Part shown: positions 1 through 13,309 of the stretch, piece by piece
How positions within the stretch are numbered: position 1 is the stretch's first letter
Layout of the letters: the number at the start of each line of letters is the position of its first letter
From: Arenicella sp.
Lineage (GTDB): Bacteria; Pseudomonadota; Gammaproteobacteria; Arenicellales; Arenicellaceae
Assembly: GCA_047629535.1 (NCBI GenBank)
Contig: JBLHXJ010000001.1
Span: forward strand, 41,975 to 65,974
DNA: 24,000 nucleotides
Reading direction: 5' to 3'
Position numbers and translations under genes: made by a program
Notes under the pieces: model-generated
Database searches by the model: none
Seen by the model: the letters and a program-made list of their open reading frames with translations, nothing else
Told to the model about the DNA's origin: nothing

Positions 1-1067
1 CGCTTGTAGTAATCGCAATTGTGGCGCTGGTAATCGCGCTATCGTTGTTTCCATCAGCACCCAATACCGAATTAACAGAAGTGGATAGCAGCCTCCCACC
101 AGCCGAAATTGTTCAAAAAGTTTTTGGCCCTATCCAGCCAATAAAAGCGGCTACCGATTTAGACCCTGAGAAAGTTTCTCTAGGTTCGCAATTATTCAGT
201 GACAATATACTGTCTGAAGATAATACCGTCTCCTGTGTAACTTGCCACAGTCTTGAGACCGCTGGTACTAACGGCTTGACCGTGTCGGTGGGCATTGCTG
301 GCGGCGTAAAGCACATCAATGTGCCAACCGTGTTTAATTCAGCGTTGAACTTTGTGCAATTTTGGGATGGCCGAGCAAAAACACTTGAAGAGCAGGTGAG
401 TGGCCCGGTCGAGCATCCGTTGGAGATGGGCTCTACTTGGCCCAGTGTAATTAGCCGCCTGAATGCCAATCGTAATTACCGAGAGCAATTTGCTGATCTC
501 TATACAGAAGGCGTATCAAAAGAGTCGGTTAGTCACGCGCTTGCTGAGTTTGAGCGCTCGCTAAATACACCAGATTCGCCCTTTGACCGGTATTTGAAAG
601 GTGATCTGAATGCTTTGGACGAGAAGCAATTGGCCGGTTATCAATTGTTTAAGCAGCTTGGCTGCATACGCTGTCACCAGGGGCAGGGTGTGGGCGGTAA
701 TATGTTTCAGCGAATGGGAGCTAAAAAAGACTACTTCGCTGGCCGCGATGATTTGACTGAGCACGACATGGGCCGCTTTAACGTGACCGGCGATGAGTAC
801 GATCGACATCGGTTTAAGGTCCCGAGCCTTCGTAATATTGCACTTACCGCACCGTACTTTCATGATAGTAGCGCAGCGACCCTGGAACAGGCTATCCAAA
901 CCATGGCGACCTACCAACTCGGTCGTCGCTTAAAAGATCAAGAAGAACAATTGTTAGTTAGCTTTTTAGAAAGCTTAACCGGCGAATACAAGGGCACTAA
1001 GCTAAGCCTTGGAGCCGTTTTTGAAACAGGCGCCGAGACAGGCGATCAAAACGGCAAAAAACTATGA
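1..1067 (+). CDS. Di-heme cytochrome c peroxidase / MauG-family protein (5' end probably off-window)
   Basis: The reading frame is open from the window edge. The ORF-track start at 21 is a GTG inside a hydrophobic signal-like stretch (..VVIAIVALVIALSLF) with no charged n-region, so the true start is probably upstream. Two CxxCH heme c motifs are present: CVTCH (nt 234-248) and CIRCH (nt 663-677). Family hallmarks FWDGRA, FKVPSLRNIALTAPYFHDSS and LEQAIQTMA are also present. Confidence 0.9.
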   Translation, partial: LVVIAIVALVIALSLFPSAPNTELTEVDSSLPPAEIVQKVFGPIQPIKAATDLDPEKVSLGSQLFSDNILSEDNTVSCVTCHSLETAGTNGLTVSVGIAGGVKHINVPTVFNSALNFVQFWDGRAKTLEEQVSGPVEHPLEMGSTWPSVISRLNANRNYREQFADLYTEGVSKESVSHALAEFERSLNTPDSPFDRYLKGDLNALDEKQLAGYQLFKQLGCIRCHQGQGVGGNMFQRMGAKKDYFAGRDDLTEHDMGRFNVTGDEYDRHRFKVPSLRNIALTAPYFHDSSAATLEQAIQTMATYQLGRRLKDQEEQLLVSFLESLTGEYKGTKLSLGAVFETGAETGDQNGKKL

Positions 1068-3199
1068 AAGCCCGAGCAGAATATATTATTGGTTCGGGCG
1101 TCATTTTTGTTGGCGTGCTGTTGATGGCATTCTTCTTTTGGAAGTCTGGCGCGATCGACGATACTCGTGAGCATCAGCGCTTTGTAGAAAGTGTCCGCCA
1201 TTTGCAGGCCAGCGATGCAATTCTCGATCAGCACCTTTTACGCTTGCGCAACGGCTCGGCGACTAGCGTTGATAATGTTAACCAAGAGTTAGTTGCGATC
1301 AGCCGATTGAATGCAATTATAGCTAGGCCGCCGGATTATATTTCGCCAAAAGGTACCGCGATTTTGATGGATATTTTGGCAAATTATCATCTGGTGATGG
1401 AGCGTAAGAAATTACTAATTGAGCGCTTTATGGCTGAAAATGCGAATCTTAAAACATCTATTGTGTATTATCCGATTTTGAGTCAAGAGCTGGTAGATAG
1501 CTTAGACGAGATTGAGCAAGGCCAACCTATTACCGAAAAAATACAGACGCTTTTGCGTGATATTTTATTGTTTAACCTTAATACCAACCCTGGTTTAGGT
1601 ATTTCAATTAAAAGCCAAATTGGTCGGCTCGATGCGGCTGGTCAAGCTTACCTCATAGGTGCAAACGCAACGAGCTTGAATTCGATTAGAGGAATTGAAG
1701 ATCTAAGCTTGCAGGGGCAAACGATTCTGCGGGTGAAGCCTGGAGTTGATTCGCTTATTACCGAACTAATGTCGATACCGATAACGGTTGAGCTCGAGAG
1801 CTTTGCAGACGAATACCACCGCTGGTATAGCTATGCGCTAGACAGTGCCAAGTTTTATCGTTTTTGTTTGTACTTTATGATTGTTCTGACAATCATAATT
1901 ATTTCCTGGATGATTATTCGAAACCTTAATGCCCGCATAAGGCGCGCGACCCAATCTATTGCACAACAACGCGATCAGTTAGTAGTCAAACTCGATGAGC
2001 GAAGGGCCCTATCTGAGGTGGCCATGGCGGTCAGTAGCGTTGGTGATCTGAACAAGGTATTAGATACCATATTAGCAAAGAGTCTTGAGGTGGTTGAGGT
2101 CGAAGCAAGCTCCATATTGTTGCTCGATAAAGAGAAAAATGATCTCTATTTTCATACCGTGCAGGGCCGAGTCTCTGACAATCTTAAAGATATACGCATC
2201 GCGTTAGGTCAAGGCTTGGTAGGGCATGTTGCTCAAAACGGCAAAACGGAGGTAGTTTCTGACCCTTATGCGGACCCACGTTTTAACCAACAGGTAGATA
2301 TTGCTACCGGCTTTGTTACCAAATCAATTCTGACAACACCGCTGGTAAGCCAGGATGAAATCATCGGCGTGTTACAGTTGGTAAACCGTCGGCAACAAGA
2401 GTCGTTTGATGATAACGACGTGCTACTAATTGAATCATTCGCGGTACAAGCCGGTATTGCAATCGTAAATTCGCGACTTTATTCCGACGTTAAAAATTAT
2501 GCCAACGACCTTAAAGAGTCTCTCGAAAAAGAACGAACCTTAAGAGTTCAGAAGCAGAAAATGGGTGCTTACATGCCTAAGGATGTGGTCGATCAGATAT
2601 CACGTAGCAGCGAAGAAAAAATCGCTCTTGGTGGTAAGGTAGTGCGCGCCACGATTATGTTCTCAGACATTGTTGGTTTCACCCGTTTGTCAGAACGCTT
2701 GGAACCAGAAAAAGTAGTCGATTTTTTAAATCTTTACATGACCGCGATGAGCAACATCATAGAACAAGAGGGTGGCATTGTAGATAAGTTCATTGGCGAT
2801 GGCATTATGGCCGTTTTTACTGACAGTGAAACTGAGCAGGCAATGGCGGCGGTGCAAGCGGGCTTGAGAATGCAAGCCGCGGTTCAGAGCGAACGAGAAA
2901 GCTGGGGTAGCATTGATCAAGATTTGGCTAAGGTGGAGATTCGTATTGGTATTAACTCCGGCCGAGTAATATCCGGTAATGTAGGGTCCGAACAACGAAT
3001 GGATTACACCGTGATTGGCGACAATGTAAATGTCGCAGCGCGAATCGAGCAAGCGTGTAATCCCGGCGAAGTACTTATTAGTCTATCTACTTTTGAAGAC
3101 GTCAAGCTGCGAGTTAAATCGACCGAAATGGAGCCAATTAAAGTGAAAAATCGAGATCAGGCTGTCCTAACTTATTCAGTCGACTCAGTGTTGTCTTAG
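1064..3199 (+). CDS. Membrane sensor protein: periplasmic helical domain - GAF - class III adenylate cyclase
   Basis: ATG 1064 overlaps the upstream TGA (ATGA at 1064-1067). Two predicted TM helices (aa ~8-27 and ~263-287) bracket a helical extracytoplasmic region of about 235 aa. A GAF-like region spans aa ~316-468 (nt ~2009-2467). The cyclase homology domain spans aa ~525-700 (nt ~2636-3163) and contains FSDIVGFT, DKFIGDGIMAVF and DYTVIGDNVNVAARIE (metal Asp, Asn/Arg). The Lys575/Thr648 pair suggests ATP as substrate (class IIIb-like). Confidence 0.9.
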   Translation: MKARAEYIIGSGVIFVGVLLMAFFFWKSGAIDDTREHQRFVESVRHLQASDAILDQHLLRLRNGSATSVDNVNQELVAISRLNAIIARPPDYISPKGTAILMDILANYHLVMERKKLLIERFMAENANLKTSIVYYPILSQELVDSLDEIEQGQPITEKIQTLLRDILLFNLNTNPGLGISIKSQIGRLDAAGQAYLIGANATSLNSIRGIEDLSLQGQTILRVKPGVDSLITELMSIPITVELESFADEYHRWYSYALDSAKFYRFCLYFMIVLTIIIISWMIIRNLNARIRRATQSIAQQRDQLVVKLDERRALSEVAMAVSSVGDLNKVLDTILAKSLEVVEVEASSILLLDKEKNDLYFHTVQGRVSDNLKDIRIALGQGLVGHVAQNGKTEVVSDPYADPRFNQQVDIATGFVTKSILTTPLVSQDEIIGVLQLVNRRQQESFDDNDVLLIESFAVQAGIAIVNSRLYSDVKNYANDLKESLEKERTLRVQKQKMGAYMPKDVVDQISRSSEEKIALGGKVVRATIMFSDIVGFTRLSERLEPEKVVDFLNLYMTAMSNIIEQEGGIVDKFIGDGIMAVFTDSETEQAMAAVQAGLRMQAAVQSERESWGSIDQDLAKVEIRIGINSGRVISGNVGSEQRMDYTVIGDNVNVAARIEQACNPGEVLISLSTFEDVKLRVKSTEMEPIKVKNRDQAVLTYSVDSVLS

Positions 3200-3323: not shown

Positions 3324-4169
3324 ATGAAAACACCGAAAAGACTATTGCCGCTGATTGAAGACGGCTTGGTCGACGAAGTCCTTGGTCAACTGATGAGTGG
3401 CAAAGAAGCCACTGTGTATATGGTGCGCTGTGGCTCCGAGGTTCGTTGTGCCAAAGTGTATAAAGAAGCCGCACAGCGAAGCTTCAAAAAAGCAGTGCAA
3501 TACCAAGAAGGCCGTCGTGTGCGTAATAGCCGCCGCGGCCGGGCAATGGAAAAGGGCTCTAAGTTTGGACGCGATCAACAAGAAGAAATTTGGCAAAGTG
3601 CCGAGGTAGACGCCTTATATAAACTTGCCGCCGCTGGGGTGCGAGTGCCAGAGCCCTACGGTTGCTTCAACGGTGTGCTGTTAATGGAGTTAATTACCGA
3701 TGAAGAAGGCTACGTAGCACCGCGTCTAAACGACGTGGAACTAAGCCCAGAACGAGCGCGGCGTGACCATGCCGTGGTTATGCAAGACGTTATTAAAATG
3801 TTATGCGTTGGCCTAATTCATGGCGACTTATCTGAATTTAATGTGTTGGTTGATGAAGTTGGCCCGGTAATTATCGACCTGCCACAAGCCGTTAACGCGG
3901 CGGGTAATAACAATGCAAAAGCCATGCTCGAACGAGACGTGCGCAACATGACTAACTACTATGGCCAATTCGCACCTGAATTACTCGAGAGCGAACACGC
4001 AAAAGAAATTTGGAAGCTCTATGAAAAAGGCGACCTCAAAGCAGATACTAAGCTCACGGGCATTGTCGAAATAGATACTCGCCCAGCTAATGTCGACTCA
4101 GTAATGCTAGAAATCAAAGCGGCTTTCGAAGAACAGGAAGAGCGTTTGCAGCGATTGAGTGATGATTAG
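3324..4169 (+). CDS. RIO-type serine protein kinase/ATPase
   Basis: 281-aa ORF. It has the RIO ATP-loop motif SGKEATVY, the catalytic loop LIHGDLSEFNVL and the metal-binding IIDLPQAV. An AT-rich 124-bp upstream spacer precedes it. Confidence 0.85.
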   Translation: MKTPKRLLPLIEDGLVDEVLGQLMSGKEATVYMVRCGSEVRCAKVYKEAAQRSFKKAVQYQEGRRVRNSRRGRAMEKGSKFGRDQQEEIWQSAEVDALYKLAAAGVRVPEPYGCFNGVLLMELITDEEGYVAPRLNDVELSPERARRDHAVVMQDVIKMLCVGLIHGDLSEFNVLVDEVGPVIIDLPQAVNAAGNNNAKAMLERDVRNMTNYYGQFAPELLESEHAKEIWKLYEKGDLKADTKLTGIVEIDTRPANVDSVMLEIKAAFEEQEERLQRLSDD

Positions 4170-4183
4170 CTATAAGGCTTTGT

Positions 4184-5698
4184 TTATTTTATTGTTGATC
4201 TCTTTTCATCTGTCACCCCGATTTTGCTTCTAACAATCTCCGACTCTTGCGGGCTGAGCTCGACACTTGCATCGATTATTTTTTCAAAATGTGCTGTATC
4301 CCAAGTGTTTTCGCCACTTAAGCAATAAACATAGAGCTCGGGAAAATCTTCAATTGCCAGTTGGTCTTCGATAAAAAGCGTTTCAATTAATTTTGAATCT
4401 TCGCCTTTGCGTTTACTGTCGTAGGCCATGTTCACTGGCAGAGCGTCTTTACGACATAATACGCTGCCTTCCCATAGTCGAATATTTGAGCAATATACTT
4501 TGTTATTTTCTCGTCGGTGGATTAACCAACGAGGTAAAACTGAGGCGGCCTTATTCTGTTTTAAGGCTGATTCTAATTGCCTTGAAAGACGTGTCGGATG
4601 ATACCAATCATCGTCATCCCACTGGCAAACGAACCGGCCCTTGGCCATTTCGATCGAAAAATTGCGCAAATCACCTAGGCTTTTCTTTGCTTCGATCGGC
4701 ACAACGTGATGCCTTATTTCTTTATTATTAAGGCCCTTCAAGAACTTGTGTGTTGCCGTGTCATCAGATTCGCTAATCACGACCAGCTCTTTATGTGAAT
4801 AGCTTTGTGCCTGAAAACAATCAATAGCGCGCTCTAATAGTGCTACCCGGCCACGGGTCACGCACAAACAGGATATTAGCGGGGCTGGAGAGTTTGACGA
4901 CGACGGCTTGTCGGCCAATCTATATTTTGTTTGCTGGGCGTTAGTGGTGATGTCCTTTTGTGCAATCGAACGATAAAACGATGGTGGCCGTTCGTAATAC
5001 AGGGTTAACAGTGAGAGGTTGCGTATATAGCTCTGGGGATCAATGCCGTTAGGCTCACTTGACTGATGCCACAAATGGTAGGCAATGCCCTTAAGTGTTG
5101 CCATTTTGGTAGCAAAAAAGGCTACCCGCTTGGACATGGCGTCGTCTTCTGCACCCCAGCCTTCAAAGCGTTCATCCATACCGCCCGTCGCGTGGTAAAG
5201 TCTTCGTGTAAGGGCGAACGCTCCTCCGCAGAAGGGGGGGTATTGGCCTATCGACTGTCGGTTTGTCTGTTGCCTTGTTCTATTAATATGCAGCGATTGT
5301 GTCTGCGCTAAAAGCTGTTGTGATTCCTCCTGGCTTAGGTCAACTAAAACGTCATACGGATTGATCGCGTCTACATCGTTGTTCATTTGTTGGCAAATCT
5401 CATCTAACGCAGCTGCGCTAATGAGCATGTCTGAATCGGCGAATACCAGCCGCTCACAGCTTGCATAATTAGCGGCGATGTTCAGCCCCCAGGATTTATT
5501 GAAGCGCCCAGAATTCTCAACAAATACATACTTGATGTTAGCTTGCTGTTGGTTTTTAAATTGAGGGGTAGCGTCTTGCTCGACGAGAATTATCTCTAAG
5601 CTTCGGTCGAGGCTGAGCTGCTGTAAAAGGAAGTGTAAGTTATGTTGCCGACCTTGATCAGATTGGCGATAGGTTATTAGGTAAGAGAAGCGATACAT
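4184..5698 (-). CDS. Two-domain glycosyltransferase: N-terminal beta-1,4-galactosyltransferase-like (GT7/Glyco_transf_7C-like) + C-terminal GT2
   Basis: N-domain (aa 1-~215): ILVEQD, RFNKSWGLNIAANYA, FADSDM (DxD) and FCGGAFALTRRLYHATGGMDERFEGWGAEDDAMSKR, which parallels the beta4GalT FGGVSAL...WGWGGEDDD block. C-domain (aa ~270-504): ISCLCVTRGR, ELVVISESDD, LGDLRNFSIEMAKGRFVCQWDDDDWYHP (classic GT2). No TM segment is evident. Confidence 0.85.
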   Translation of the reverse strand: MYRFSYLITYRQSDQGRQHNLHFLLQQLSLDRSLEIILVEQDATPQFKNQQQANIKYVFVENSGRFNKSWGLNIAANYASCERLVFADSDMLISAAALDEICQQMNNDVDAINPYDVLVDLSQEESQQLLAQTQSLHINRTRQQTNRQSIGQYPPFCGGAFALTRRLYHATGGMDERFEGWGAEDDAMSKRVAFFATKMATLKGIAYHLWHQSSEPNGIDPQSYIRNLSLLTLYYERPPSFYRSIAQKDITTNAQQTKYRLADKPSSSNSPAPLISCLCVTRGRVALLERAIDCFQAQSYSHKELVVISESDDTATHKFLKGLNNKEIRHHVVPIEAKKSLGDLRNFSIEMAKGRFVCQWDDDDWYHPTRLSRQLESALKQNKAASVLPRWLIHRRENNKVYCSNIRLWEGSVLCRKDALPVNMAYDSKRKGEDSKLIETLFIEDQLAIEDFPELYVYCLSGENTWDTAHFEKIIDASVELSPQESEIVRSKIGVTDEKRSTIK

Positions 5699-5855: not shown

Positions 5856-6512
5856 ATGAAACAAGCGCCATCTCCACAAGTATTGATTGGCACGCCTGCT
5901 TACAATGGCATGCTGCATACAGACTATCTGCATTCGATTCTTGGTTTTGTAAAAAATGACATCCCGCATGCGGTGATGACCATTGGTAATGAGAGTTTGA
6001 TCACTCGGGCCAGGAATACAATTTTGGCCAGTTTCTGGGAGGCCGACACGTTTACCCATCTACTTTTCCTTGATGCTGATGTGTTTCTTGACCATCAGGG
6101 CCTTAGCCAAATGCTTAGCCATAATAAAGATGTTGTTGGCGCGCCAGTTTATCTGAAAGGCAAGAACGCAGACGGCGAACAAACCGCAAATACAGATGCC
6201 AAACTGAATGTTCTGCCGGTGCTTCAATCAGTAACTAGAGTTGGCACCGCAGCACTGCTGCTATCACGTTCGGCGGTTAATTCTTTGGTCGCCCACGCAA
6301 TCAAGCAAGATCGGACCTACAGCATAAATAAGATGCTTCGACATGAAGGGATGGCAACCACCCACTACGATGTGTTCAGAGTGGGTATCTCTAATGACGA
6401 GTATTTATCAGAAGATTTTTGGCTTTGCAAAGAATTGCGAGAGCTGGGTCACGAAATTCACGTCGACACCTCGGTATACACTCGCCATAACGGTATGGTC
6501 TGCTTCGACTAG
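5856..6512 (+). CDS. Small putative GT-A fold glycosyltransferase
   Basis: 218-aa ORF. VLIGTPAYNG opens a Rossmann-like strand. It also has SLITRARNTILASF and HLLFLDADVFL (DxD). I cannot assign a CAZy family by eye. It is divergent from the 4184-5698 gene across a 157-bp spacer. Confidence 0.65.
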   Translation: MKQAPSPQVLIGTPAYNGMLHTDYLHSILGFVKNDIPHAVMTIGNESLITRARNTILASFWEADTFTHLLFLDADVFLDHQGLSQMLSHNKDVVGAPVYLKGKNADGEQTANTDAKLNVLPVLQSVTRVGTAALLLSRSAVNSLVAHAIKQDRTYSINKMLRHEGMATTHYDVFRVGISNDEYLSEDFWLCKELRELGHEIHVDTSVYTRHNGMVCFD

Positions 6513-6634: not shown

Positions 6635-7486
6635 TTATGCCCAGCTAGACTTCGACAAGCTGAAATTAAACGCAACGTTTGAATTTGCTGGCATAGGCGT
6701 GGTTGGCATAGGCGTTGTTGGCATAGACGTGGTTGGCATAGACGTGGTTGGCATAGACGTAGACGTGGTAGTCGGTACGCCTGTAGTCGTTGGTGCAACA
6801 GTAGTCGTTGGTGCGCCTGTAGTCGTTGGTGCAACAGTAGTCGTTGGTGCCGCAGTGGTGGTTGCCACCGGCGCGCAAACTGGATCAGACGAAGAGACAG
6901 TAAATGCTCCAGTTTCACCTAAGCCACTAATGGAACCCGTAGCCGAAGTTGGCACAGTCGCGCTGTTAAGCGTTGCCGTCACTGTAAAGCCAGAGTGCAA
7001 ACCCACAACGCTTACTGCGGTGCCGTTAACAGAGCCTTTTTGAACATCAACTTCATTATTATTTAGAGTCAATGAAACGGTTGCAACGCCGGCTTCAAGT
7101 GTGAGCAGTACGCAACCGCCATTTAATACTGTAATGGGCGCTTCTTCGGCATATGCCTGACCAATGAAAATATCCAGAATATCGTTAACATCAACGCCGT
7201 CATTTTCAGCCTTGGATATCGATATGCCGCCGCCGCCGCCCATTACTACAACAGCAGCACTGGTTTGTGCATGGCTTGGAAGTATTACCGCGTCAAGTAA
7301 TGGCTTTTTCCATTTATCAGGGACTAAGCTAGTTGAAATAACCGCGCCGCCGCCAATTAAGGTATTTCTTAATACTGTACGTCTAGCATTCTTCTGCTCT
7401 ACACCAACAGCTAGCTCTTGTTGCTCAGCTGATTTAGACGAAGGTGTCGCTTCGCTACTCAATGAATCATTTGTATCTTTAGGCAT
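6635..7486 (-). CDS. Exported protein with twin-arginine-like signal and C-terminal Thr/Pro-rich mucin-like repeat tail
   Basis: The ORF is open to TTG 7549, but the first ATG is at 7486 (MPKDTND...), and using it removes the overlap with the divergent gene. ARRTVLRNTLIGGGAVISTSLV is followed by LPSHA|Q, a possible signal-peptidase site. A central region of about 130 aa is rich in Gly/Val/Thr and carries 2 Cys. The tail is APVATTTAAPTTTVAPTTTGAPTTTVAPTTTGVPTTTSTSMPTTSMPTTSMPTTPMPTTPMP (62 aa, 27 Thr), followed by ANSNVAFNFSLSKSSWA. Confidence 0.75.
   Translation of the reverse strand: MPKDTNDSLSSEATPSSKSAEQQELAVGVEQKNARRTVLRNTLIGGGAVISTSLVPDKWKKPLLDAVILPSHAQTSAAVVVMGGGGGISISKAENDGVDVNDILDIFIGQAYAEEAPITVLNGGCVLLTLEAGVATVSLTLNNNEVDVQKGSVNGTAVSVVGLHSGFTVTATLNSATVPTSATGSISGLGETGAFTVSSSDPVCAPVATTTAAPTTTVAPTTTGAPTTTVAPTTTGVPTTTSTSMPTTSMPTTSMPTTPMPTTPMPANSNVAFNFSLSKSSWA
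6689..6874 (-). repeat. In-frame coding tandem repeats (15-bp x5 and 36-bp x2) encoding the PT-rich tract
   Basis: The 15-bp units are at 6690-6704, 6705-6719, 6720-6734, 6735-6749 and 6750-6764 (ggcata[g/a][g/a]cgt[g/t]gtt; units 3 and 4 are identical). They encode MPTT(S/P). The 36-bp units at 6780-6815 and 6816-6851 match at 35 of 36 positions and encode (APTTTV/APTTTG). Confidence 0.95.
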
Positions 7487-7496
7487 TTTTAATACT

Positions 7497-7524
7497 TTGG
7501 CGGTAGTTAATATGGTCTTATAAT
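7497..7524 (+). promoter_or_regulatory. Candidate sigma70-type promoter for the GT32-FkbM / mega-GT operon
   Basis: TTGGCG (7497-7502), a 16-bp spacer, then a perfect TATAAT (7519-7524), about 95 nt upstream of ATG 7620. This is a pattern match only. Confidence 0.3.
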
Positions 7525-7570
7525 AACCCGAATAATAATTGGCTGCCAAGGGCTATAGGTTAACTTCTAG

Positions 7571-7591
7571 GCTACTCTTTGCTAGAGTAGC
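7571..7591. promoter_or_regulatory. Perfect 8-bp inverted repeat (operator or 5'-UTR hairpin candidate)
   Basis: gctactct (7571-7578), ttgct, agagtagc (7584-7591). It lies in the 133-bp divergent spacer between the PT-protein gene and the GT32-FkbM gene, 29 nt upstream of ATG 7620. Confidence 0.3.
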
Positions 7592-7619
7592 GGGAATATC
7601 CCTCCAGCACCGATTGATT

Positions 7620-9437
7620 ATGATTCCTAAAATTATCCACCAAACTTGGAAAACCGATCAGGTTCCAGAGCAGTGGAAGGCATTTGCCCAGTCATGGAAA
7701 TCGCATCACCCCGATTGGGAGTATCGGCTGTGGAGCAACGCTGATGGCGCTGAGTTTGTCGAACATTTCTATCCTCATTTCGAACAGACATATTGGTCCT
7801 ATCGATACGATATACAGCGCGCTGATGCGATTCGCTACCTAATAATTTATCATTATGGTGGTATCTATGCCGACCTTGATTTTGAATGCCTGCAATCATT
7901 TGAGAGCCTACGTGACAATCACAAGCTGGTTATCGGCTTTGAGCCTAAGGAGCATGCGCAGGCTCAATCATTGCAAGAAGTGTTATGCAATGCGTTATTC
8001 GCGTCAAAGCCTCGGTCAAAATTTTTAAAAGCCGTTATTGATTTTTTAATAGCGGACGACACTCCGACGATTGGACTTGGGGATGTATTGAGAACCTCTG
8101 GCCCAGTGATGTTGCAGAATGTGTATGAGCAATTTAATAAAAGTGACGTAGATGCTCATCCGCCGGTCCGCTTTTACCCGTTTGAAAATAATGCCCCAGA
8201 ATTAACCCAGCTAGCCAAAAATTCGGATGAAAGTGAACGCATAAGGCAAAAACTGATAGGTTTGGGTTGTTTTGCGGTGCACCACTGGGCAAATTCATGG
8301 ACCAAAGATTTGGCCGGTGAACTGATGAATCCGAGCGCCGATTCAGTTGAGGGGTTTGATTTTTATCCGATGTATGATTCACCTGGGATGGATTTATTTA
8401 ACGGTGGTAGAGAGGTCGCAGCACTTGCAGAACGATGCAGAGCTGATTCTCAGGTAGTAGCGTTCAATACCGATGGCTTTGCAAAGCACACTATCGCCTC
8501 AATATCTGATTTGAGCGTAATGTTAAACGCGAATCAAAATGAAGGGATATATATAAAAAGACCCATCGCTAACGCTAAAGAGGTTTTAGAGCAGCACGAG
8601 AATATGCAACTGGTCTATATTGCCGCTGCTGGCCCTCGGCCATTTAGTCTGTTTGTCGATCAAACCAACGATCTAGTAATTGCTCAGTTTATTGAGAGTA
8701 ACCGCATTTGGGAGCCGCTTGAAACCGCCTTAGTCAGCAAGTTAGTATCCCCAGGCGAAAACGTAATCGACATAGGAGCCAACATTGGCTATTTCACGGT
8801 ACTTTTTTCGCAACTAGTGGGCGAACAAGGCAAAGTGCTGGCGTTCGAACCGGAAGCAAAAAATTACTCTTTATTAAAGGCCAATATATTAATTAATCGC
8901 TTAGATAATGTGGTTATTGAAAATCAAGCGCTGTCCAATACTCAGGGAGTCGCTGATCTATACTTATCTAGTTACAATAAAGGTGATCATCGACTTGGCT
9001 ACACCGCCGGCCGAGAGAAGCAACAAATTAGCAGTATTGAGCTTGACCAATACCTGTCAGGCAACGCCCTGCCGATTCATTTTATTAAATCCGATACCCA
9101 AGGTCATGAGCTTAAAGTGCTGCAGGGTATGACCAAGTTAATTGAGCGAAATAGTGCATACTTATGCTGCTTGCTGGAATTCTCTCCAGGGTTATTGATC
9201 ACTGCAGAACCTAGAGGCGTTGAAGATTTTATCGATTTCTTTGACTTATTCGAGACCGAAATATATTTGATTCAGGAGGTGGCTCGGAACGCCGAATTAG
9301 TATTAATGGATAGCGCCGCATTGCGGCAACTGGCGCGCATAATGTTGCAGCACGAAGCGCAAGACCATTCCGTCAATACTTTAATTTTTTTTAGCACTAA
9401 CGCTCGAATCAAGTATTTCGCTAAAATGGGTTGGTGA
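7620..9437 (+). CDS. Fusion protein: GT32-type glycosyltransferase (Gly_transf_sug, DXD) - unassigned ~70-aa module - FkbM-family methyltransferase
   Basis: The ORF-track start at 7539 is a TTG. ATG 7620 gives MIPKIIHQTWKT, the canonical GT32 N-terminus. RADAIRYLIIYHYGGIYADLDFECL carries the DXD. The FkbM region (nt ~8616-9398) has VIDIGANIGYFTV, LAFEPEAKNYSLLKANI and IHFIKSDTQGHELKVLQGM. Its stop overlaps the next gene. Confidence 0.85.
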   Translation: MIPKIIHQTWKTDQVPEQWKAFAQSWKSHHPDWEYRLWSNADGAEFVEHFYPHFEQTYWSYRYDIQRADAIRYLIIYHYGGIYADLDFECLQSFESLRDNHKLVIGFEPKEHAQAQSLQEVLCNALFASKPRSKFLKAVIDFLIADDTPTIGLGDVLRTSGPVMLQNVYEQFNKSDVDAHPPVRFYPFENNAPELTQLAKNSDESERIRQKLIGLGCFAVHHWANSWTKDLAGELMNPSADSVEGFDFYPMYDSPGMDLFNGGREVAALAERCRADSQVVAFNTDGFAKHTIASISDLSVMLNANQNEGIYIKRPIANAKEVLEQHENMQLVYIAAAGPRPFSLFVDQTNDLVIAQFIESNRIWEPLETALVSKLVSPGENVIDIGANIGYFTVLFSQLVGEQGKVLAFEPEAKNYSLLKANILINRLDNVVIENQALSNTQGVADLYLSSYNKGDHRLGYTAGREKQQISSIELDQYLSGNALPIHFIKSDTQGHELKVLQGMTKLIERNSAYLCCLLEFSPGLLITAEPRGVEDFIDFFDLFETEIYLIQEVARNAELVLMDSAALRQLARIMLQHEAQDHSVNTLIFFSTNARIKYFAKMGW

Positions 9438-12400
9438 GTATCAACGGTATAAAATACTATTCCATGCTTGAGTCATCCGGCTATGGACTGTCTGCGATTA
9501 GCTATTTGAATGCGTTGCTTGACCTCGAGTGCCCAATACATTGGATTCCACTGGTCTTGGGCGAGCGAGGTTACCAACCATGGTATCAATCGACATCGGC
9601 CGAGCAGCAAGTTCGCCAATTGCTGATCGAGTGTCTGACTGACGACAGTCAAATAGACAGACTGATGGCGTGTCTAGAGCCGATTAACAACTATCAATGC
9701 ATATTCATGCATACCGTGCCGGAGTATTGGCCTCATCTTAAAGAGCCCAATAAATATCAAATCGGCTATAGCGTGTGGGAGACTAGTTGCCTACCTAAGC
9801 ATTTTCCTGAGCTCATCAATCAGCTTGACCGAGTGCTAGTACCCAGCACATTTAATCGACCGATATACGAGCGTTCGGGGGTTGAGATTCCGATAGACGT
9901 GGTGCCGCATATTCTAAATAAGCCCGCGCCTGCGGCTAAGGCGACCGTCGATACTATGCGTAGCTTGATTGAGGTTGCGCCAGAAAACTACCTCTTCTAT
10001 TGCATCAATGAATGGACCGCTCGCAAGGCGCTATGGGTTTTGGTTGACGCCTATCTAAGCAGCTTTAGTGCTGATGACTCGGTGTCTTTAGTACTAAAAA
10101 CATCGGCTCGAGGCCCGCGATCGGAAACCGATGCAGACCAGTACGACACACAACTATTGGTGGCACAAATAGCTGCTGGCTATACTGCACCTGCGCATAT
10201 TAAAGTGATTAATCATAAAATCACTAACCCTGAGATCACCGCATTACACCAACTTGGCGATTGCTTTGTCTCTACCAGTCGTAGCGAAGGCTGGGGCTTG
10301 GGTATGTTTGAAGCTGCGGGAATGGGTAACCCGGTGATTGCTACCGGCTGGGGCGGGCATCTCGATTTTCTTACAGAGCAGTCGAGCTATCTGTCATCCT
10401 ATCAATTGACTCAAGTGGTGGATACTCAAGCTGAATCGTCCTACAGTAGCGAACAACAGTGGGCTCAAGTTGATCAAACAAGTATCTCTAAGCATTTAAA
10501 AACGGTGTTCGCCAATCCTCAATTAGCGCAGCAAAACGCTCAAGATTTGGCTCTAGAGCTAAATGAAAAGTATAATTCAGCACAGCTTGGTATACAGCTC
10601 TATAAAGCAATTATGGCAACTAACATCCCCAAGATTTTTCATTTTATATTCGGTTTGAAAGAACAAACTGAGCCGTTTCATCTGGCCTACTATCTTTGTT
10701 TAAAATCCTGCCTCGAGGTTAACAAGCCGAGCGCGCTACATTTTTACTATCATTACCAACCTTATGGTGAATACTGGGAGTTGATAAAACCTCACCTGAC
10801 GCTAATCGAAGTAGAGTTGGAATCTTTTGTAAAACACAATAACGCCTACCAAGATCACCAAGAAGGTCAGTTTATCAAGGCCGCTAAACTCGATTATGCG
10901 CATCAAGCGGATTTTATCCGCTTAAAAAAATTGATAGAATACGGTGGTGTTTATGCTGACATGGACACCCTATTTGTAAACCCAATACCGGATGATCTGT
11001 ATCAGCATCCGTTTGTGATAGGCCGTGAACAGAGTGTTATCGACCCCGTAAGCAAGAAAAAAAATCCGTCATTGTGCAACGCGCTGCTGATGTCCGAACC
11101 CAATTCAGAGTTCGCGCGCCAATGGCTAAAGGCTAGTTATCAATCGTTTGACGGAACCTGGAGTTCGCACTCGTGCCAGTTAGCGGCGACACTTGCAAGC
11201 GAGTTGCCCGATACGGTGCACATTGCGCCGCAACGTTTCTTCTTCAAGCACATGTGGACAAAGCCGGGTATTAGCTCGTTATTTGAAGAGCTTGATGATG
11301 ACTTCGAGCAAGTCTATAGCATGCATATGTGGAACCATCTGTGGTGGGACCAATCGAGAGTAGACTTTTCGAGTTTTCATCAAGGCTTGATCACCGAACA
11401 AAATATTATGACGGTAGATACCACTTATAATGTTATCGCCAGACAATTTTTACCAACAGCAAGTAAGGCAACAACTAGCCCAATTAACAAAGAGCCCTCT
11501 GAAAAATTGAAAAATTCATCCTCATCAATCTTGATTCCAGTAATAGAAGTTAGTTGGGAACTTTCTCAAGAGCAAGGTTCCAGCCGCTTTTCCAATACTC
11601 AAACGGGCCATTCCTTCGCCACTAACGAAACTACAAATTTAATTCTTCAACAGTGCGATGGAATTAAAAATGTTGACGCTATCATTGATTCGCTGAGTGA
11701 GCGCTTTGGTGATGATTTCGACAGTATAGGGCATGATGTTAAAACTACTTTGCGCGAACTAGCTTTGAGTGGCGCGATTCGATTTAAACAAATCACACCG
11801 GCTCTACCAGTTGTTCAGCCCACGCCGCCCGAGGCACCCTCAAAGCAGTACAAGTTGTGTATTGGCATGGCCACCTACGATGACTATGACGGTGTCTACT
11901 TTTCGGTGCAGGCGATGCGAATGTATCACCCAGAAATATTGGAGCATGTAGAGTTTTTAGTGCTCGACAACAACCCCACAGGCGTTTGCGCCGACGCGCT
12001 AAAAAACCTTGGTGATTGGATCCCAAACTATCGTTATATTGAAGGCGATAATTTCCAAGGAACCTGGTCTCGATTTTCCTTGATTAACCAAACTAACGCT
12101 CCGTATATTTTGTGTATGGATTCGCACGTGATGGTTTTACCCGGAGCGATTAAGCAACTGTTGGATTATATCGACATTCACCCCGACACACCCGACATGC
12201 TGCAAGGGCCACTAGTGGCCGATGATTTGTTTTCCTTGTCATCGCATTTTACGCCCGGCTGGGGTAGTGGCATGTATGGCAAATGGGCAACAGATTCAAG
12301 AGCGGAAGATCTCGACAACCCTGGGTTTGATATCCCAATGCAAGGGCTTGGTTTGTTTGCCTTTCGCAAAGATAGCTGGCCGCAAGTAAACTCACGCTTT

Positions 12401-13309
12401 AAAGGGTTTGGCGGCGAAGAGGGCTATGTGCATGAGAAAGTTCGGCGTGCCGGTGGGCGAACATTATGTCTACCATTTTTACGCTGGGTACACCGCTTTA
12501 ACCGACCGATGGGCACGCGCTATGCGCTCAGTTGGCATGATCGCATTCGCAACTATATGGTCGCGCATGACGAACTGGATGTTGATAATAGCGAGATGAT
12601 TGAACACTTCAATTCGTTTATAGGCGAGGCCGAAACCGCAACAATAGTTGCCGATGTTGAAGCTGAAATTAACAATCCATTCTACTTTTTTGATGCTATT
12701 TACTGTATCAACTTAGATCGACAAGAAGAACGATGGAAGACCGCACAGGCACAATTCGATAAGCTTGGCATTACCCATCGAGTTCAGCGTTTTTCCGCTA
12801 TTGAAACACCCGAAAATCACCATATAGGGTGTGCCTTGTCACACCGAGCAATTATTCAAATGGCATCGGTCAATAAGCACAAAAATGTATTGGTGTTAGA
12901 AGATGATGTGATCTTCGATGCGGCCACACTGACTGATCTTGCAAATAGCCTGGATGAGGCAAAAGCCGAAAGCTGGGATGTATTATATTTAGGTGGACAT
13001 TGTTGGGACAAGCGATATCCACTTGTAAGTGGGCGTGAACATTTAAGAGAACTGGTCAGTGGCGAAGTTGGGCCAACCACAACCCATGCGATTGTCTATG
13101 GCGATTCCAGTTATTCGCAACTGCTTAATGATCTTCCCGAGACTATCGCGCAGATGACAAGCGCCATTGATCAAGGGTGGTTAGCGATTGATCAGTATTT
13201 GGCCGTTGAGACAACGCTAAGAAAGCTGATAACCGAACCTAGAGTGGCAAGTCAGCCACCGCTTCTTATCCAAGAAGAAGATAGCTTTACACCGATACTT
13301 TCGGCATAG
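9431..13309 (+). CDS. 1292-aa multi-domain glycosyltransferase: GT4 - GT32 - PqqD-like - DxH GT-A (GT2/GT27-like) - GT25
   Basis: The start is TTG 9431 or GTG 9434, overlapping the upstream TGA (9435-9437). ATG 9464 would delete the first beta-strand IKYYS. GT4 (aa 1-~392): EX7E in SRSEGWGLGMFEAAGMGNPVIATGWGG (nt 10286-10312). GT32 (aa ~397-672): IPKIFHFIFG and ADFIRLKKLIEYGGVYADMDTLF. PqqD-like: aa ~704-786. GT-A (aa ~806-1045): FLVLDNNP, CMDSHV (nt 12119-12127), GFGGEEGY and WVHRF. GT25 (aa ~1085-1280): AIYCINLDRQEERW, GCALSHRA and VLVLEDDVIF. No TM segment is evident. Confidence 0.85.
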   Translation: MVSINGIKYYSMLESSGYGLSAISYLNALLDLECPIHWIPLVLGERGYQPWYQSTSAEQQVRQLLIECLTDDSQIDRLMACLEPINNYQCIFMHTVPEYWPHLKEPNKYQIGYSVWETSCLPKHFPELINQLDRVLVPSTFNRPIYERSGVEIPIDVVPHILNKPAPAAKATVDTMRSLIEVAPENYLFYCINEWTARKALWVLVDAYLSSFSADDSVSLVLKTSARGPRSETDADQYDTQLLVAQIAAGYTAPAHIKVINHKITNPEITALHQLGDCFVSTSRSEGWGLGMFEAAGMGNPVIATGWGGHLDFLTEQSSYLSSYQLTQVVDTQAESSYSSEQQWAQVDQTSISKHLKTVFANPQLAQQNAQDLALELNEKYNSAQLGIQLYKAIMATNIPKIFHFIFGLKEQTEPFHLAYYLCLKSCLEVNKPSALHFYYHYQPYGEYWELIKPHLTLIEVELESFVKHNNAYQDHQEGQFIKAAKLDYAHQADFIRLKKLIEYGGVYADMDTLFVNPIPDDLYQHPFVIGREQSVIDPVSKKKNPSLCNALLMSEPNSEFARQWLKASYQSFDGTWSSHSCQLAATLASELPDTVHIAPQRFFFKHMWTKPGISSLFEELDDDFEQVYSMHMWNHLWWDQSRVDFSSFHQGLITEQNIMTVDTTYNVIARQFLPTASKATTSPINKEPSEKLKNSSSSILIPVIEVSWELSQEQGSSRFSNTQTGHSFATNETTNLILQQCDGIKNVDAIIDSLSERFGDDFDSIGHDVKTTLRELALSGAIRFKQITPALPVVQPTPPEAPSKQYKLCIGMATYDDYDGVYFSVQAMRMYHPEILEHVEFLVLDNNPTGVCADALKNLGDWIPNYRYIEGDNFQGTWSRFSLINQTNAPYILCMDSHVMVLPGAIKQLLDYIDIHPDTPDMLQGPLVADDLFSLSSHFTPGWGSGMYGKWATDSRAEDLDNPGFDIPMQGLGLFAFRKDSWPQVNSRFKGFGGEEGYVHEKVRRAGGRTLCLPFLRWVHRFNRPMGTRYALSWHDRIRNYMVAHDELDVDNSEMIEHFNSFIGEAETATIVADVEAEINNPFYFFDAIYCINLDRQEERWKTAQAQFDKLGITHRVQRFSAIETPENHHIGCALSHRAIIQMASVNKHKNVLVLEDDVIFDAATLTDLANSLDEAKAESWDVLYLGGHCWDKRYPLVSGREHLRELVSGEVGPTTTHAIVYGDSSYSQLLNDLPETIAQMTSAIDQGWLAIDQYLAVETTLRKLITEPRVASQPPLLIQEEDSFTPILSA
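11540..11788 (+). other. PqqD-like (RiPP-recognition-element-like) domain embedded in the mega-glycosyltransferase
   Basis: EVSWELSQEQGSSRFSNTQTGHSFATNETTNLILQQCDGIKNVDAIIDSLSERFGDDFDSIGHDVKTTLRELALSGAIRF follows the PqqD-family pattern (x-LNetaaxIwxlxDGxxtvxeIvxxLxxxy...DVxxfLxxLxxxGli). It is flanked by Ser/Thr/Pro-rich linkers. Confidence 0.6.

What the first reader, a model, noticed from the sequence alone, without database searches (positions are those of the whole stretch)
6635..7486. Mucin-like PT-repeat protein with a twin-arginine-type signal: possible export of a pre-glycosylated protein
The N-terminus carries NARRTVLRNTLIGGGAVISTSLV. That is two consecutive Arg followed by a moderately hydrophobic Gly-rich h-region, then LPSHA|Q, after an unusually long (~35 aa) polar n-region. 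This looks more like a Tat signal than a Sec signal. Established knowledge: Tat exports folded, cofactor-loaded proteins. Inference: because all GTs in the locus look cytoplasmic, a Tat route would allow export of a protein that was already glycosylated in the cytoplasm. I do not know of this being documented. Alternatively the segment is an N-terminal membrane anchor. The protein ends in a non-repeat tail (ANSNVAFNFSLSKSSWA) of unknown role.
Basis: partly seen in the sequence, partly recalled or inferred. Interest (0 to 1): 0.7.

Follow-up and report, generated by a model that had tools for sequence, protein, structure and literature searches.

The report
Tat-type leader on glycosylation-cassette mucin protein
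A threonine-rich secreted protein of a marine Arenicella bacterium carries a conserved, extra-long twin-arginine export leader and always sits among soluble sugar-adding enzymes, one with a peptide-docking domain; this suggests, without proving, that it is glycosylated inside the cell and then exported by the folded-protein (Tat) route.

Summary
Window 6635-7486 (minus strand) encodes a 283-aa protein with a 34-aa polar start, RR35-36, a weak Gly-rich hydrophobic stretch, SHA|Q at residue 73/74, a two-Cys beta-rich domain, 58 aa of PTTT-type repeats and a conserved NFS-containing tail.

The "Tat-like" segment is one copy of a fixed 42-aa N-terminal module: RRK[LV]LK, a G/A-rich h-region, then LPxxWxKPVVDSVxLPAHA|QT[ST]. 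About 3,000 protein clusters carry it, and neither Pfam nor NCBIfam matched it at the thresholds used. Some relatives pass the NCBI Tat-signal model; this protein does not. Cargoes are small, mostly unknown and have paired cysteines, which points to export.

The gene is the centre of a five-gene cassette that recurs with different flanks. The cassette holds about eight soluble glycosyltransferase domains, an FkbM methyltransferase and a PqqD-like peptide-recognition (RRE) domain. In related loci of at least 4 kb, 17 of 45 carry glycosyltransferases and/or a PqqD-like domain, including next to precursors with 8-12-aa cores.

Best reading (about 0.5): a dual-use leader that docks the glycosylation enzymes in the cytoplasm and then directs Tat export. 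Glycosylation, Tat dependence and cleavage are all inferred. I judge it a new variant of known kinds, interest 0.72.

The parts
6635..7486 (-). ORF of the PT-repeat protein (283 aa plus stop), the predicted substrate of the cassette
   Evidence: Homologues P0002-P0008.
7385..7486 (-). Polar n-region, aa 1-34. It contains the motif VGVEQK, which is conserved in close homologues.
7268..7390 (-). Extended twin-arginine leader module, aa 33-73 (NARRTVLRNTLIGGGAVISTSLVPDKWKKPLLDAVILPSHA). RR is at 7379-7384, the h-region at 7322-7366 and the conserved c-extension at 7268-7321. Predicted cleavage is after A73 (nt 7268|7267).
   Evidence: Profile search. Fixed RR-to-HA spacing of 37-38 aa in 154/178 members. 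Logo with invariant R, R, W, P, P, H. Tat-model hits in relatives.
7148..7186 (-). Second, degenerate copy of the 'LLDxVxxPxHA' element (NDILDIFIGQAYA, aa 101-113). It follows a second Gly-rich hydrophobic stretch (AAVVVMGGGGGISIS).
   Evidence: An analogous [PQ].A[H..]A motif lies 25-60 aa after the first site in 58/203 long cargoes.
6863..7267 (-). Mature non-repeat region, aa 74-208. It includes a beta-rich domain with Cys125 and Cys204.
   Evidence: The AF2 model is low-confidence overall, with strands at aa 126-198. Cys positions. Family-wide even-Cys bias.
6689..6862 (-). Mucin-like repeats ((A/V/G)PTTT x5, then SMPTT/PMPTT x5), aa 209-266. Predicted O-glycosylation tract.
   Evidence: Tandem DNA repeats, composition, repeat number varying among homologues.
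6638..6688 (-). Conserved C-terminal tail ANSNVAFNFSLSKSSWA (aa 267-283) with the invariant N-F-S sequon-like core.
   Evidence: Alignment. Related tails (N.[ST]F.F[ST]..W/D) in short family members.
5856..6512 (+). 218-aa GT-A glycosyltransferase with DxD motif FLDADV. In the close subfamily it lies directly next to the substrate gene in every contig examined.
   Evidence: Adjacent in every homologue contig. 54% identical copy next to the 60-aa precursor in L011 and next to a 58-aa precursor in L140. AF2 pLDDT 92 with GT-A fold matches.
4184..5698 (-). 504-aa protein with two GT-A domains (GT2 / Glyco_transf_7C)
   Evidence: Pfam. PDB sequence matches to chondroitin synthase K4CP and beta-1,4-galactosyltransferases. 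Conserved in the cassette.
7539..9437 (+). Gly_transf_sug (DXD) glycosyltransferase fused to an FkbM methyltransferase. The true start is probably ATG 7620.
   Evidence: Pfam/NCBIfam. The L004 homologue is 605 aa. ATG at 7620. Match to an alpha-1,6-mannosyltransferase.
9431..13309 (+). 1,292-aa multi-domain enzyme: GT4, Gly_transf_sug, PqqD-like RRE, GT2, GT25
   Evidence: Pfam. SetA-like segment at aa 488-616. Split into two genes in L001.
11597..11773 (+). PqqD-like RiPP recognition element (aa 723-781 of the 1,292-aa enzyme), the predicted docking site for the leader
   Evidence: PF05402 33.3 bits against a cutoff of 23.4, plus TIGR03859. Conserved in orthologues and found next to divergent leader-bearing genes.

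Best explanation
The gene encodes an exported mucin-like protein. Its N-terminus is a dual-purpose leader.

Step 1 (inferred): in the cytoplasm, the leader is bound by the PqqD-like recognition domain embedded in the 1,292-aa glycosyltransferase. This would work the way RiPP enzymes hold their precursors, or the way the chaperones DmsD and TorD hold Tat signal peptides.

Step 2 (inferred): the cassette's roughly eight soluble glycosyltransferase domains and the FkbM methyltransferase build glycans directly on the protein. The Thr-rich PTTT repeats are the most likely target. The Thr/Ser just after the leader and the conserved C-terminal NFS motif are other possible sites.

Step 3 (inferred): the RR motif, weak h-region and basic c-region route the bulky, already modified protein through the Tat translocase.

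Step 4 (inferred): the leader is removed after Ser-His-Ala73, and the two cysteines form a disulfide outside the cytoplasm.

Shown here: the anatomy, the family-wide conservation and fixed geometry of the leader, Tat-model hits in relatives, the conserved substrate-plus-enzyme cassette, the presence and enrichment of the PqqD-like domain, the lack of membrane segments in the enzymes, and the paired-cysteine signature of the cargoes.
For: Leader:
- 2,999 cluster representatives share the module.
- R, R, W, P, P and H are invariant, and RR-to-HA spacing is 37-38 aa in 154/178 members.
- The consensus SRRKLLK matches the Tat motif.
- 18/149 relatives reach TIGR01409 and 20/149 reach formate_TAT, and no other signal-type family matched.
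- The h-region scores Kyte-Doolittle 1.3-1.4 over 15 aa, below the level expected of a membrane anchor.

Export:
- Cargoes longer than 70 aa have an even Cys count in 169 cases, odd in 22 and none in 12. Lys is low, and Thr, Gly and Ser are high.

Cassette:
- The same five genes surround the homologues while the outer flanks differ.
- The 218-aa GT-A also lies next to 58-60-aa precursors with 8-12-aa cores.

Recognition domain:
- The PqqD hit is above the Pfam cutoff.
- PqqD-like domains occur in 14 of 118 metagenomic loci (541 kb in total) and in 11 of the 45 loci of at least 4 kb. Glycosyltransferases occur in 16 of those 45.
- A Hyphomicrobiaceae locus has three tandem leader+T-rich genes beside GT2, a PqqD-like ORF and GT2-NTP_transf_5.
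- The PqqD-GT2-GT25 enzyme lies next to T/P-rich cargoes in L105, L046, L103 and L084.

Cytoplasmic route:
- No glycosyltransferase has a membrane segment.
- The window has no oligosaccharyltransferase, flippase or Bac_transf.

Precedent:
- RRE-associated precursors that carry Sec signal peptides are described in PMC12710340.
Against: - The window protein itself does not reach either Tat-signal model. Only about 12% of relatives do.
- The small-x-small site lies 18 residues past the h-region. That is longer than in the textbook Tat and Sec signals I recall.
- The invariant W/P/P/H implies a recognition partner that I could not identify.
- About 60% of family loci of at least 4 kb show neither a glycosyltransferase nor a PqqD domain nearby, so the leader is not intrinsically a glycosylation tag.
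- The same glycosyltransferase set also occurs beside PEP-CTERM-type proteins with ordinary signals.
- No tat genes are in the window, and I could not check the genome.
- Disulfide-containing small proteins are not typical Tat cargo.
- The AF2 model of the protein is poor (pLDDT 43).
- The RRE-leader co-fold could not be run.
Confidence: 0.5

Rival explanations
1. The leader is only a RiPP-style recognition sequence for the PqqD-bearing enzymes. The modified product leaves the cell by another route, or stays inside. The Tat resemblance is then vestigial or coincidental.
For: - PqqD-like domains are strongly enriched next to leader-bearing genes.
- Many members have cores of only 4-30 aa, typical of RiPP precursors.
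- The invariant W...P...P.H block resembles a recognition sequence more than a generic signal-peptide c-region.
- The window protein misses both Tat models.
Against: - No ABC transporter/C39 peptidase or other exporter is in the cassette.
- RR and the following L-L-K are as conserved as the W/P/P/H block.
- Relatives pass TIGR01409.
- The paired-cysteine cargoes point to an oxidising compartment.
- Most loci have no PqqD domain nearby, yet they keep the whole module.
Confidence: 0.15
2. The protein is an ordinary Sec- or Tat-exported protein that is not a substrate of its neighbours. The glycosyltransferases make a polysaccharide or glycolipid, and the PT-repeat protein is only co-located or serves as a structural partner.
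For: - The two-domain GT resembles glycosaminoglycan synthases.
- The same glycosyltransferase set occurs without the leader next to PEP-CTERM proteins.
- No glycan data exist.
Against: - The substrate-like gene and the glycosyltransferases move together as a unit with changing flanks.
- The link persists when the 'protein' shrinks to a 58-60-aa peptide.
- A peptide-binding PqqD domain inside a glycosyltransferase has no obvious role in polysaccharide synthesis.
- The window has no initiating phosphoglycosyltransferase, flippase, polymerase or exporter.
Confidence: 0.15
3. The N-terminal segment is an uncleaved membrane anchor (signal anchor). It would hold the domain and the PT stalk at the inner membrane.
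For: The candidate cleavage site is far (18 aa) from the hydrophobic stretch.
Against: - The uncharged stretch is only 16 aa in this protein and about 12 aa in the family consensus. Its Kyte-Doolittle score is at most 1.4, too short and weak for a stable helix.
- P-x-H-A is invariant at a fixed distance, as expected of a processing site.
- Members with 4-12-aa cores would have no function as anchored proteins.
Confidence: 0.07

Closest known systems
Tat signal peptides with dedicated cytoplasmic binding chaperones (E. coli DmsA/DmsD, TorA/TorD; recalled from my own knowledge)
   Same: Long leaders with S-R-R-x-[FL]-[LV]-K, a Gly/Ala/Thr-rich h-region and an A-x-A-type end (DmsA ends ...RIAHA). 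A cytoplasmic protein binds the leader before export, so the cargo leaves only when it is finished.
   Different: Here the putative binder is a PqqD/RRE domain fused to glycosyltransferases, not a TorD-family chaperone. 'Maturation' would be glycosylation, not cofactor insertion. The leader has an extra invariant 18-aa block (LPxxWxKPVVDSVxLPAHA) that is absent from classical Tat signals. Only 5 of 149 relatives' cargoes match any Pfam domain, and none of those is a cofactor enzyme.
Serine-rich repeat glycoproteins exported by the accessory Sec system (GspB/Fap1 type)
   Same: A repeat-rich, mucin-like protein is encoded next to soluble glycosyltransferases. It is glycosylated in the cytoplasm and then exported with an unusually long specialised signal peptide.
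   Different: No SecA2/SecY2/Asp genes and no KxYKxGKxW signal. The repeats are Thr/Pro, not Ser. The host is Gram-negative. The predicted export route is Tat. The only similarity to GtfA is a weak hit (E 0.013).
RiPP precursors that use a general secretion signal as leader (DUF2282 'bufferin'-type precursors with DUF2063 RREs; PMC12710340)
   Same: An RRE-containing modification system acts on a ribosomal precursor whose N-terminus is an export signal, so export follows cytoplasmic modification.
   Different: Those carry Sec signals and are not glycosylated. Here the signal is twin-arginine type, the enzymes are glycosyltransferases, and cargo size runs from 4 aa to over 250 aa.
Glycocins and other glycosylated RiPPs (SunS/ThuS-type S/O-glycosyltransferases)
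   Same: GT-A (GT2-like) enzymes glycosylate a ribosomal peptide in the cytoplasm. RRE-GT2 fusions have been noted bioinformatically (PMC12710340).
   Different: Glycocin precursors have double-glycine leaders and are exported by ABC transporters with a peptidase domain. They receive one or two sugars. This cassette has about eight GT domains and no transporter.
Cytoplasmic protein glycosylation of Gram-negative adhesins (HMW1/HMW1C N-glucosylation; AIDA-I/Aah heptosylation)
   Same: A soluble transferase modifies the protein before it crosses the inner membrane. A conserved N-x-S motif is present in the tail.
   Different: No GT41 or heptosyltransferase is present. Those substrates use Sec and two-partner or autotransporter secretion and carry only mono- or di-saccharides.

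Membership tests
Twin-arginine (Tat) signal peptide | Consecutive Arg-Arg in a Z-R-R-x-hydrophobic-hydrophobic motif at the n/h boundary | tested here: met
   A-R-R-T-V-L at aa 34-39. RR is invariant, and the family consensus is S-RR-K-L-L-K.
Twin-arginine (Tat) signal peptide | Short, weakly hydrophobic, Gly/Ala/Ser/Thr-rich uncharged h-region | tested here: met
   NTLIGGGAVISTSLVP is 16 uncharged residues, with Kyte-Doolittle 1.27-1.40 over 15 aa.
Twin-arginine (Tat) signal peptide | Basic residue(s) in the c-region and a small-x-small signal peptidase site shortly after the h-region | tested here: inconclusive
   K58, K60, K61 and S-H-A73 are present. The site is 18 aa after the h-region, and P-x-H-A is invariant, which suggests specific rather than generic recognition.
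Twin-arginine (Tat) signal peptide | Score at or above the curated cutoff of TIGR01409 / PF10518 | tested here: not met
   No hit for this protein even at E<=10. Relatives with the same module do hit: P0165 18.3 bits and P0155 18.0 bits against a cutoff of 16.7, and 18/149 at E<=0.007.
Twin-arginine (Tat) signal peptide | Export depends on TatABC and is lost on RR to KK | not testable with these tools
   No tat genes in the 24-kb window.
RRE-dependent RiPP-like precursor | A PqqD-like RiPP recognition element in a neighbouring modifying enzyme | tested here: met
   PF05402 33.3 bits (cutoff 23.4) at aa 723-781 of the 1,292-aa enzyme. Conserved in orthologues and recurrent next to divergent leader genes.
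RRE-dependent RiPP-like precursor | Short precursor with a conserved leader and a variable core | tested here: inconclusive
   This protein has 283 aa with folded-looking cargo, so it is not a peptide. Relatives of 58-123 aa have the same leader and cores of 8-70 aa.
RRE-dependent RiPP-like precursor | Physical binding of the leader by the RRE | not testable with these tools
Accessory-Sec serine-rich repeat glycoprotein | SecA2/SecY2/Asp export genes, GtfA/GtfB pair, KxYKxGKxW-type signal | tested here: not met
   None among the Pfam/NCBIfam hits of the window. The GtfA model hits only at E 0.013.
Oligosaccharyltransferase-dependent (PglB/PglL) protein glycosylation | Lipid-linked glycan assembly genes (initiating phosphoglycosyltransferase, flippase) and a periplasmic OTase | tested here: not met
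   No Bac_transf, Wzx/ABC flippase, STT3 or Wzy_C/PglL domain in the window or in the conserved cassette. They could still be encoded elsewhere in the genome.
HMW1C-type cytoplasmic N-glycosylation | GT41 N-glycosyltransferase acting on N-x-S/T | tested here: not met
   No GT41 hit. An invariant N-F-S exists in the tail, and sequons are only modestly enriched family-wide (z about 3).

The most novel reading that the evidence does not exclude
The 42-aa module defines a large, unmodelled class of "twin-arginine leader" peptides and proteins, about 3,000 clusters, found mostly in uncultured marine and sediment Proteobacteria. In this reading the leader is read twice: first by RRE-bearing cytoplasmic glycosyltransferases, then by the Tat translocase. 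That would make these the first natural pre-glycosylated Tat cargoes and the first Tat-exported RiPP-like glycopeptides. The Arenicella PT-repeat protein would be a bacterial mucin built this way.
Probability: 0.35. Interest if true: 0.85.

Novelty: new variant of a known kind. Interest (0 to 1): 0.72.

Why it matters
Tat is known for exporting folded, cofactor-loaded enzymes. Bacterial glycoproteins are thought to be made either outside the cytoplasm by oligosaccharyltransferases, or inside and then sent through Sec-type or flagellar routes.

A natural system that builds complex glycans on a protein or peptide in the cytoplasm and then uses Tat would add a new export logic for bulky modified cargo. 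It would link RiPP-type substrate recognition to protein secretion.

It would also supply a ready-made leader and enzyme toolkit for secreting cytoplasmically glycoengineered products from Gram-negative hosts. Independently of mechanism, the leader module is a simple handle (about 3,000 clusters) for mining a family of small secreted proteins that are almost entirely uncharacterised.

Tried and rejected
- AF2 of the full protein with an 8-sequence alignment gave pLDDT 43, too poor for a fold search.
- The search for related loci with the diverse module alignment failed because no stretch was conserved enough. I replaced it with a degenerate DNA pattern.
- The genome-contig scan returned only 7 loci because the derived pattern was narrow.
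- The word-indexed search with the module profile returned only short proteins.
- Literature searches found nothing relevant for the motif strings, for Tat plus RiPP precursors or for Tat plus cytoplasmic glycosylation.
- The module pattern has no hit in viral contigs or plasmids, so I dropped a phage or plasmid origin.
- N-region length does not clearly separate glycosyltransferase-linked from other loci (median 18.5 against 14 aa), so I make no claim that the long n-region is the docking site.
- N-x-S/T enrichment is modest (z 2.7-3.4), so I do not claim N-glycosylation.
- Rfam and tRNA scans of the window were empty.
Full report
**What is there**

Window 6635-7486 (minus strand) is an ORF of 283 aa starting at ATG. 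Its parts, in order, are:
- a 34-aa polar n-region;
- RR35-36 within A-R-R-T-V-L-R;
- a 16-residue uncharged Gly-rich stretch, NTLIGGGAVISTSLVP (Kyte-Doolittle 1.3-1.4 over 15 aa);
- PDKWKKPLLDAVILPSHA, ending at A73;
- a non-repeat region (aa 74-208) with a second Gly-rich stretch, a degenerate second 'LLDxxxxxxHA' element (NDILDIFIGQAYA) and a beta-rich part holding Cys125 and Cys204;
- 58 aa of (A/V/G)PTTT and (S/P)MPTT repeats, encoded by true tandem DNA repeats;
- the tail ANSNVAFNFSLSKSSWA.

The source is an Arenicella sp. MAG (Gammaproteobacteria, Arenicellales). NCBI's longer TTG start at 7549 lies inside a promoter-like site and adds residues the homologues lack. Neither Pfam nor NCBIfam gives a significant match to the protein.

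**The N-terminal segment is a widespread module**

Seven homologues share a nearly identical EQKNARRxVLRNTLIGGGAVISTSxVPDKWKKPLLDSVILPSHAQTS, a variable repeat tract and the conserved tail PNSNxTFNFSLSKSxW[SA].

A 59-column profile of the N-terminal segment was searched exhaustively against 1.84 billion cluster representatives. It found 2,999 proteins at E<=1e-3 and 167 at E<=1e-10. A degenerate DNA pattern for the W..P..LP.HA block recovered 120 metagenomic stretches, and 118 of them encode the module. The same pattern found nothing in 2.9 million viral contigs. A tblastn of the module consensus found nothing in plasmids.

The family logo is [DE]-S-R-R-K-L-L-K-S-I-A-A-G-[GS]-G-A-V-V-A-G-K-S-L-P-E-x-W-x-K-P-V-V-D-S-V-x-L-P-A-H-A | Q-T-[ST].
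- R, R, W, P, P and H are invariant in the aligned set (W, P, P and H in all 149 representatives, RR in over 90%).
- The RR-to-HA distance is fixed at 37-38 residues in 154 of 178 members.

**Is it a Tat signal?**

The first half of the module is a near-textbook Tat signal: S-R-R-x-[FL]-L-K, then a short Gly/Ala-rich h-region, then basic residues.
- Among 149 representatives, 18 reach the NCBIfam model TIGR01409 at about its trusted cutoff, and 20 hit the formate-dehydrogenase Tat-target model. No other signal-type family appears.
- The window protein reaches neither model. Its Tat assignment therefore rests on homology to members that do, and on its own features.
- The second half (LPxxWxKPVVDSVxLPAHA) has no counterpart in classical Tat signals. 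It puts the small-x-small site 18 residues beyond the h-region. Its invariance argues for a specific binding partner that I could not identify.

**The cargo looks exported**

I analysed 297 non-redundant mature regions.
- Those longer than 70 aa have an even number of Cys in 169 cases, odd in 22 and none in 12.
- Composition is Thr/Gly/Ser-rich and Lys-poor.
- 53 have Thr-rich tracts.
- 94 are at most 70 aa long, and some are only 4-30 aa.
- Only 5 of 149 representatives have any Pfam domain in the cargo (Peptidase_S74 four times, Gly_rich_2 once), and none is a cofactor enzyme.

**Genomic context**

The window gene sits in the arrangement:
- two-domain GT (4184-5698, minus strand);
- 218-aa GT-A (5856-6512, plus strand);
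- substrate gene (minus strand);
- Gly_transf_sug-FkbM (7539/7620-9437, plus strand);
- 1,292-aa GT4-Gly_transf_sug-PqqD-GT2-GT25 (9431-13309, plus strand).

The same five genes surround the homologues in other contigs. The outer flanks differ: RIO kinase and DUF3429 here, glutaminase and SNF in one contig, LysR and YjeF in another. The set therefore behaves as a unit.

No enzyme in the set has a membrane segment. The window encodes no oligosaccharyltransferase, flippase or initiating phosphoglycosyltransferase.

The 218-aa protein is a confident GT-A fold (pLDDT 92) with a DxD motif. Its nearest solved relatives include STIV A197 and the collagen-glycosylating LH3 and COLGALT1 domains, at TM about 0.5-0.6, so this is fold-level similarity only. 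It belongs to a large family (1,020 hits).

Other similarities, all modest:
- The two-domain enzyme resembles chondroitin synthase K4CP and beta-4-galactosyltransferases.
- The Gly_transf_sug domain resembles an alpha-1,6-mannosyltransferase.
- A segment of the large enzyme resembles Legionella SetA.

**The peptide-recognition domain**

Residues 723-781 of the large enzyme match PqqD above the Pfam cutoff (33.3 against 23.4 bits) and also match TIGR03859. PqqD-like domains are the RiPP recognition elements that hold precursor leaders. This domain is conserved in all orthologous cassettes.

PqqD-like domains recur next to divergent leader-bearing genes:
- They occur in 14 of 118 metagenomic loci, which total 541 kb.
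- Of the 45 loci of at least 4 kb, 11 have a PqqD-like domain, 16 have a glycosyltransferase and 17 have either.

For a domain that I expect to be rare in genomes, this is a large enrichment.

Three examples stand out:
- A 4.4-Mb genome encodes a 58-aa precursor: the leader followed by the 12-aa core GLTCNVNCNITG. It lies between a 218-aa GT-A homologue, a GT10-PqqD fusion and a 1,543-aa multi-GT.
- A 60-aa precursor with the core LMTIINGS lies next to a 54%-identical GT-A and four other glycosyltransferases.
- A Hyphomicrobiaceae contig has three tandem leader+Thr-rich genes followed by GT2, a PqqD-like ORF and a GT2-NTP_transf_5 fusion.

The PqqD-GT2-GT25 enzyme is a separate gene in some contigs. 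It is found next to T/P-rich cargoes in L105, L046, L103 and L084. In L105 the PTTT repeats lie N-terminal to the beta domain rather than C-terminal. This supports the repeats being its target.

**Limits**

- About 60% of loci with adequate flanks show neither a glycosyltransferase nor PqqD nearby. The leader is therefore a general feature of these exported proteins, and the glycosylation link holds for a subset of roughly one third.
- The same glycosyltransferase set also occurs beside cadherin-like proteins with PEP-CTERM-type tails and ordinary signals.
- N-x-S/T motifs are only modestly enriched (z about 3), although N-F-S in the tail of the close family is invariant.
- Glycosylation, Tat dependence, leader cleavage and RRE-leader binding are all inferred.

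**Most likely mechanism and rivals**

Best reading (confidence about 0.5): the leader is read twice.
1. The PqqD-bearing enzyme docks on it in the cytoplasm.
2. The soluble glycosyltransferases and the methyltransferase decorate the Thr-rich repeats, and possibly the Thr/Ser after the leader and the NFS tail.
3. The RR signal then sends the bulky product through Tat.
4. The leader is removed after SHA73.

Rivals:
- A RiPP leader with non-Tat export (0.15).
- An unrelated neighbour of polysaccharide genes (0.15).
- An uncleaved membrane anchor (0.07).

**Comparison with what is known**

The system works like Tat leaders that are held by dedicated chaperones until the cargo matures (DmsA/DmsD and TorA/TorD, from my own knowledge). 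It also works like serine-rich repeat glycoproteins, which are glycosylated in the cytoplasm and exported by accessory Sec. A third parallel is RRE-associated precursors that carry Sec signal peptides (PMC12710340). It is not a member of any of these: the defining genes and motifs were tested and not found.

I found no report of the module in the held literature. I also found none of a natural Tat cargo that is glycosylated before export.

**Verdict**

I classify the system as a new variant of known kinds, with interest 0.72.

Noticed in passing
window 7148-7186 (aa 101-113), with aa 76-90 upstream: The protein has a second Gly-rich hydrophobic stretch (AAVVVMGGGGGISIS) followed by NDILDIFIGQAYA, a degenerate echo of the leader's 'PLLDAVILPSHA'. 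58 of 203 long cargoes in the family have a similar [PQ].A[H..]A motif 25-60 aa after the first site. This may be a second processing or recognition site, or a propeptide boundary.
   Followed up: partly
L140:10772-10948 (-), L011:10001-10183 (+), and P0159-P0161, P0016, P0055: Many family members are tiny precursors: the leader plus a core of 4-16 aa, such as GLTCNVNCNITG, LMTIINGS or MMTNSMYFNVTIPG. They often carry an N-x-S/T motif and sit next to multi-glycosyltransferase genes. They look like an undescribed class of glycosylated RiPPs.
   Followed up: partly
L142:108-935 and L143:3267-4304, with neighbouring genes: The same glycosyltransferase set (GT4, Gly_transf_sug, GT2, GT7C-type, 218-aa GT-A, FkbM), encoded as separate genes, lies next to cadherin/Big_9 proteins. 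These end in a PEP-CTERM-like tail (…LGLLGTLLAWLGLRRRR) and have ordinary signals. This hints that the enzyme set also serves exosortase-type substrates.
   Followed up: no
metagenomic loci L020-L139; L019:12438-14537: NTP_transf_5 (PF14907, uncharacterised nucleotidyltransferase) recurs next to leader-bearing genes: 5 of 134 near neighbours. In a Hyphomicrobiaceae locus it is fused to GT2.
   Followed up: no
window 7487-7620: Gene starts look mis-set. The TTG at 7549 (NCBI start of the PT protein) and the TTG at 7539 (first possible start of the Gly_transf_sug-FkbM ORF) overlap each other in the divergent promoter region. ATG 7486 and ATG 7620 fit the homologues' lengths.
   Followed up: partly
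L016 (contig Ga0535639_0000863): A contig carrying an Arenicella-like copy of the whole cassette is deposited in a MAG labelled Polaribacter sp. (Bacteroidota). This is probably a binning error.
   Followed up: no
window 1064-3199, 17045-19603, 14711-16569, 3324-4169: The surroundings of the cassette include a DAHL-GAF-adenylate/guanylate cyclase, a Na+/H+ exchanger fused to a cyclic-nucleotide-binding domain, a DUF2157 + GDYXXLXY membrane pair and a bacterial RIO-type kinase. None is conserved next to the cassette in other contigs, except the RIO kinase in L010.
   Followed up: no
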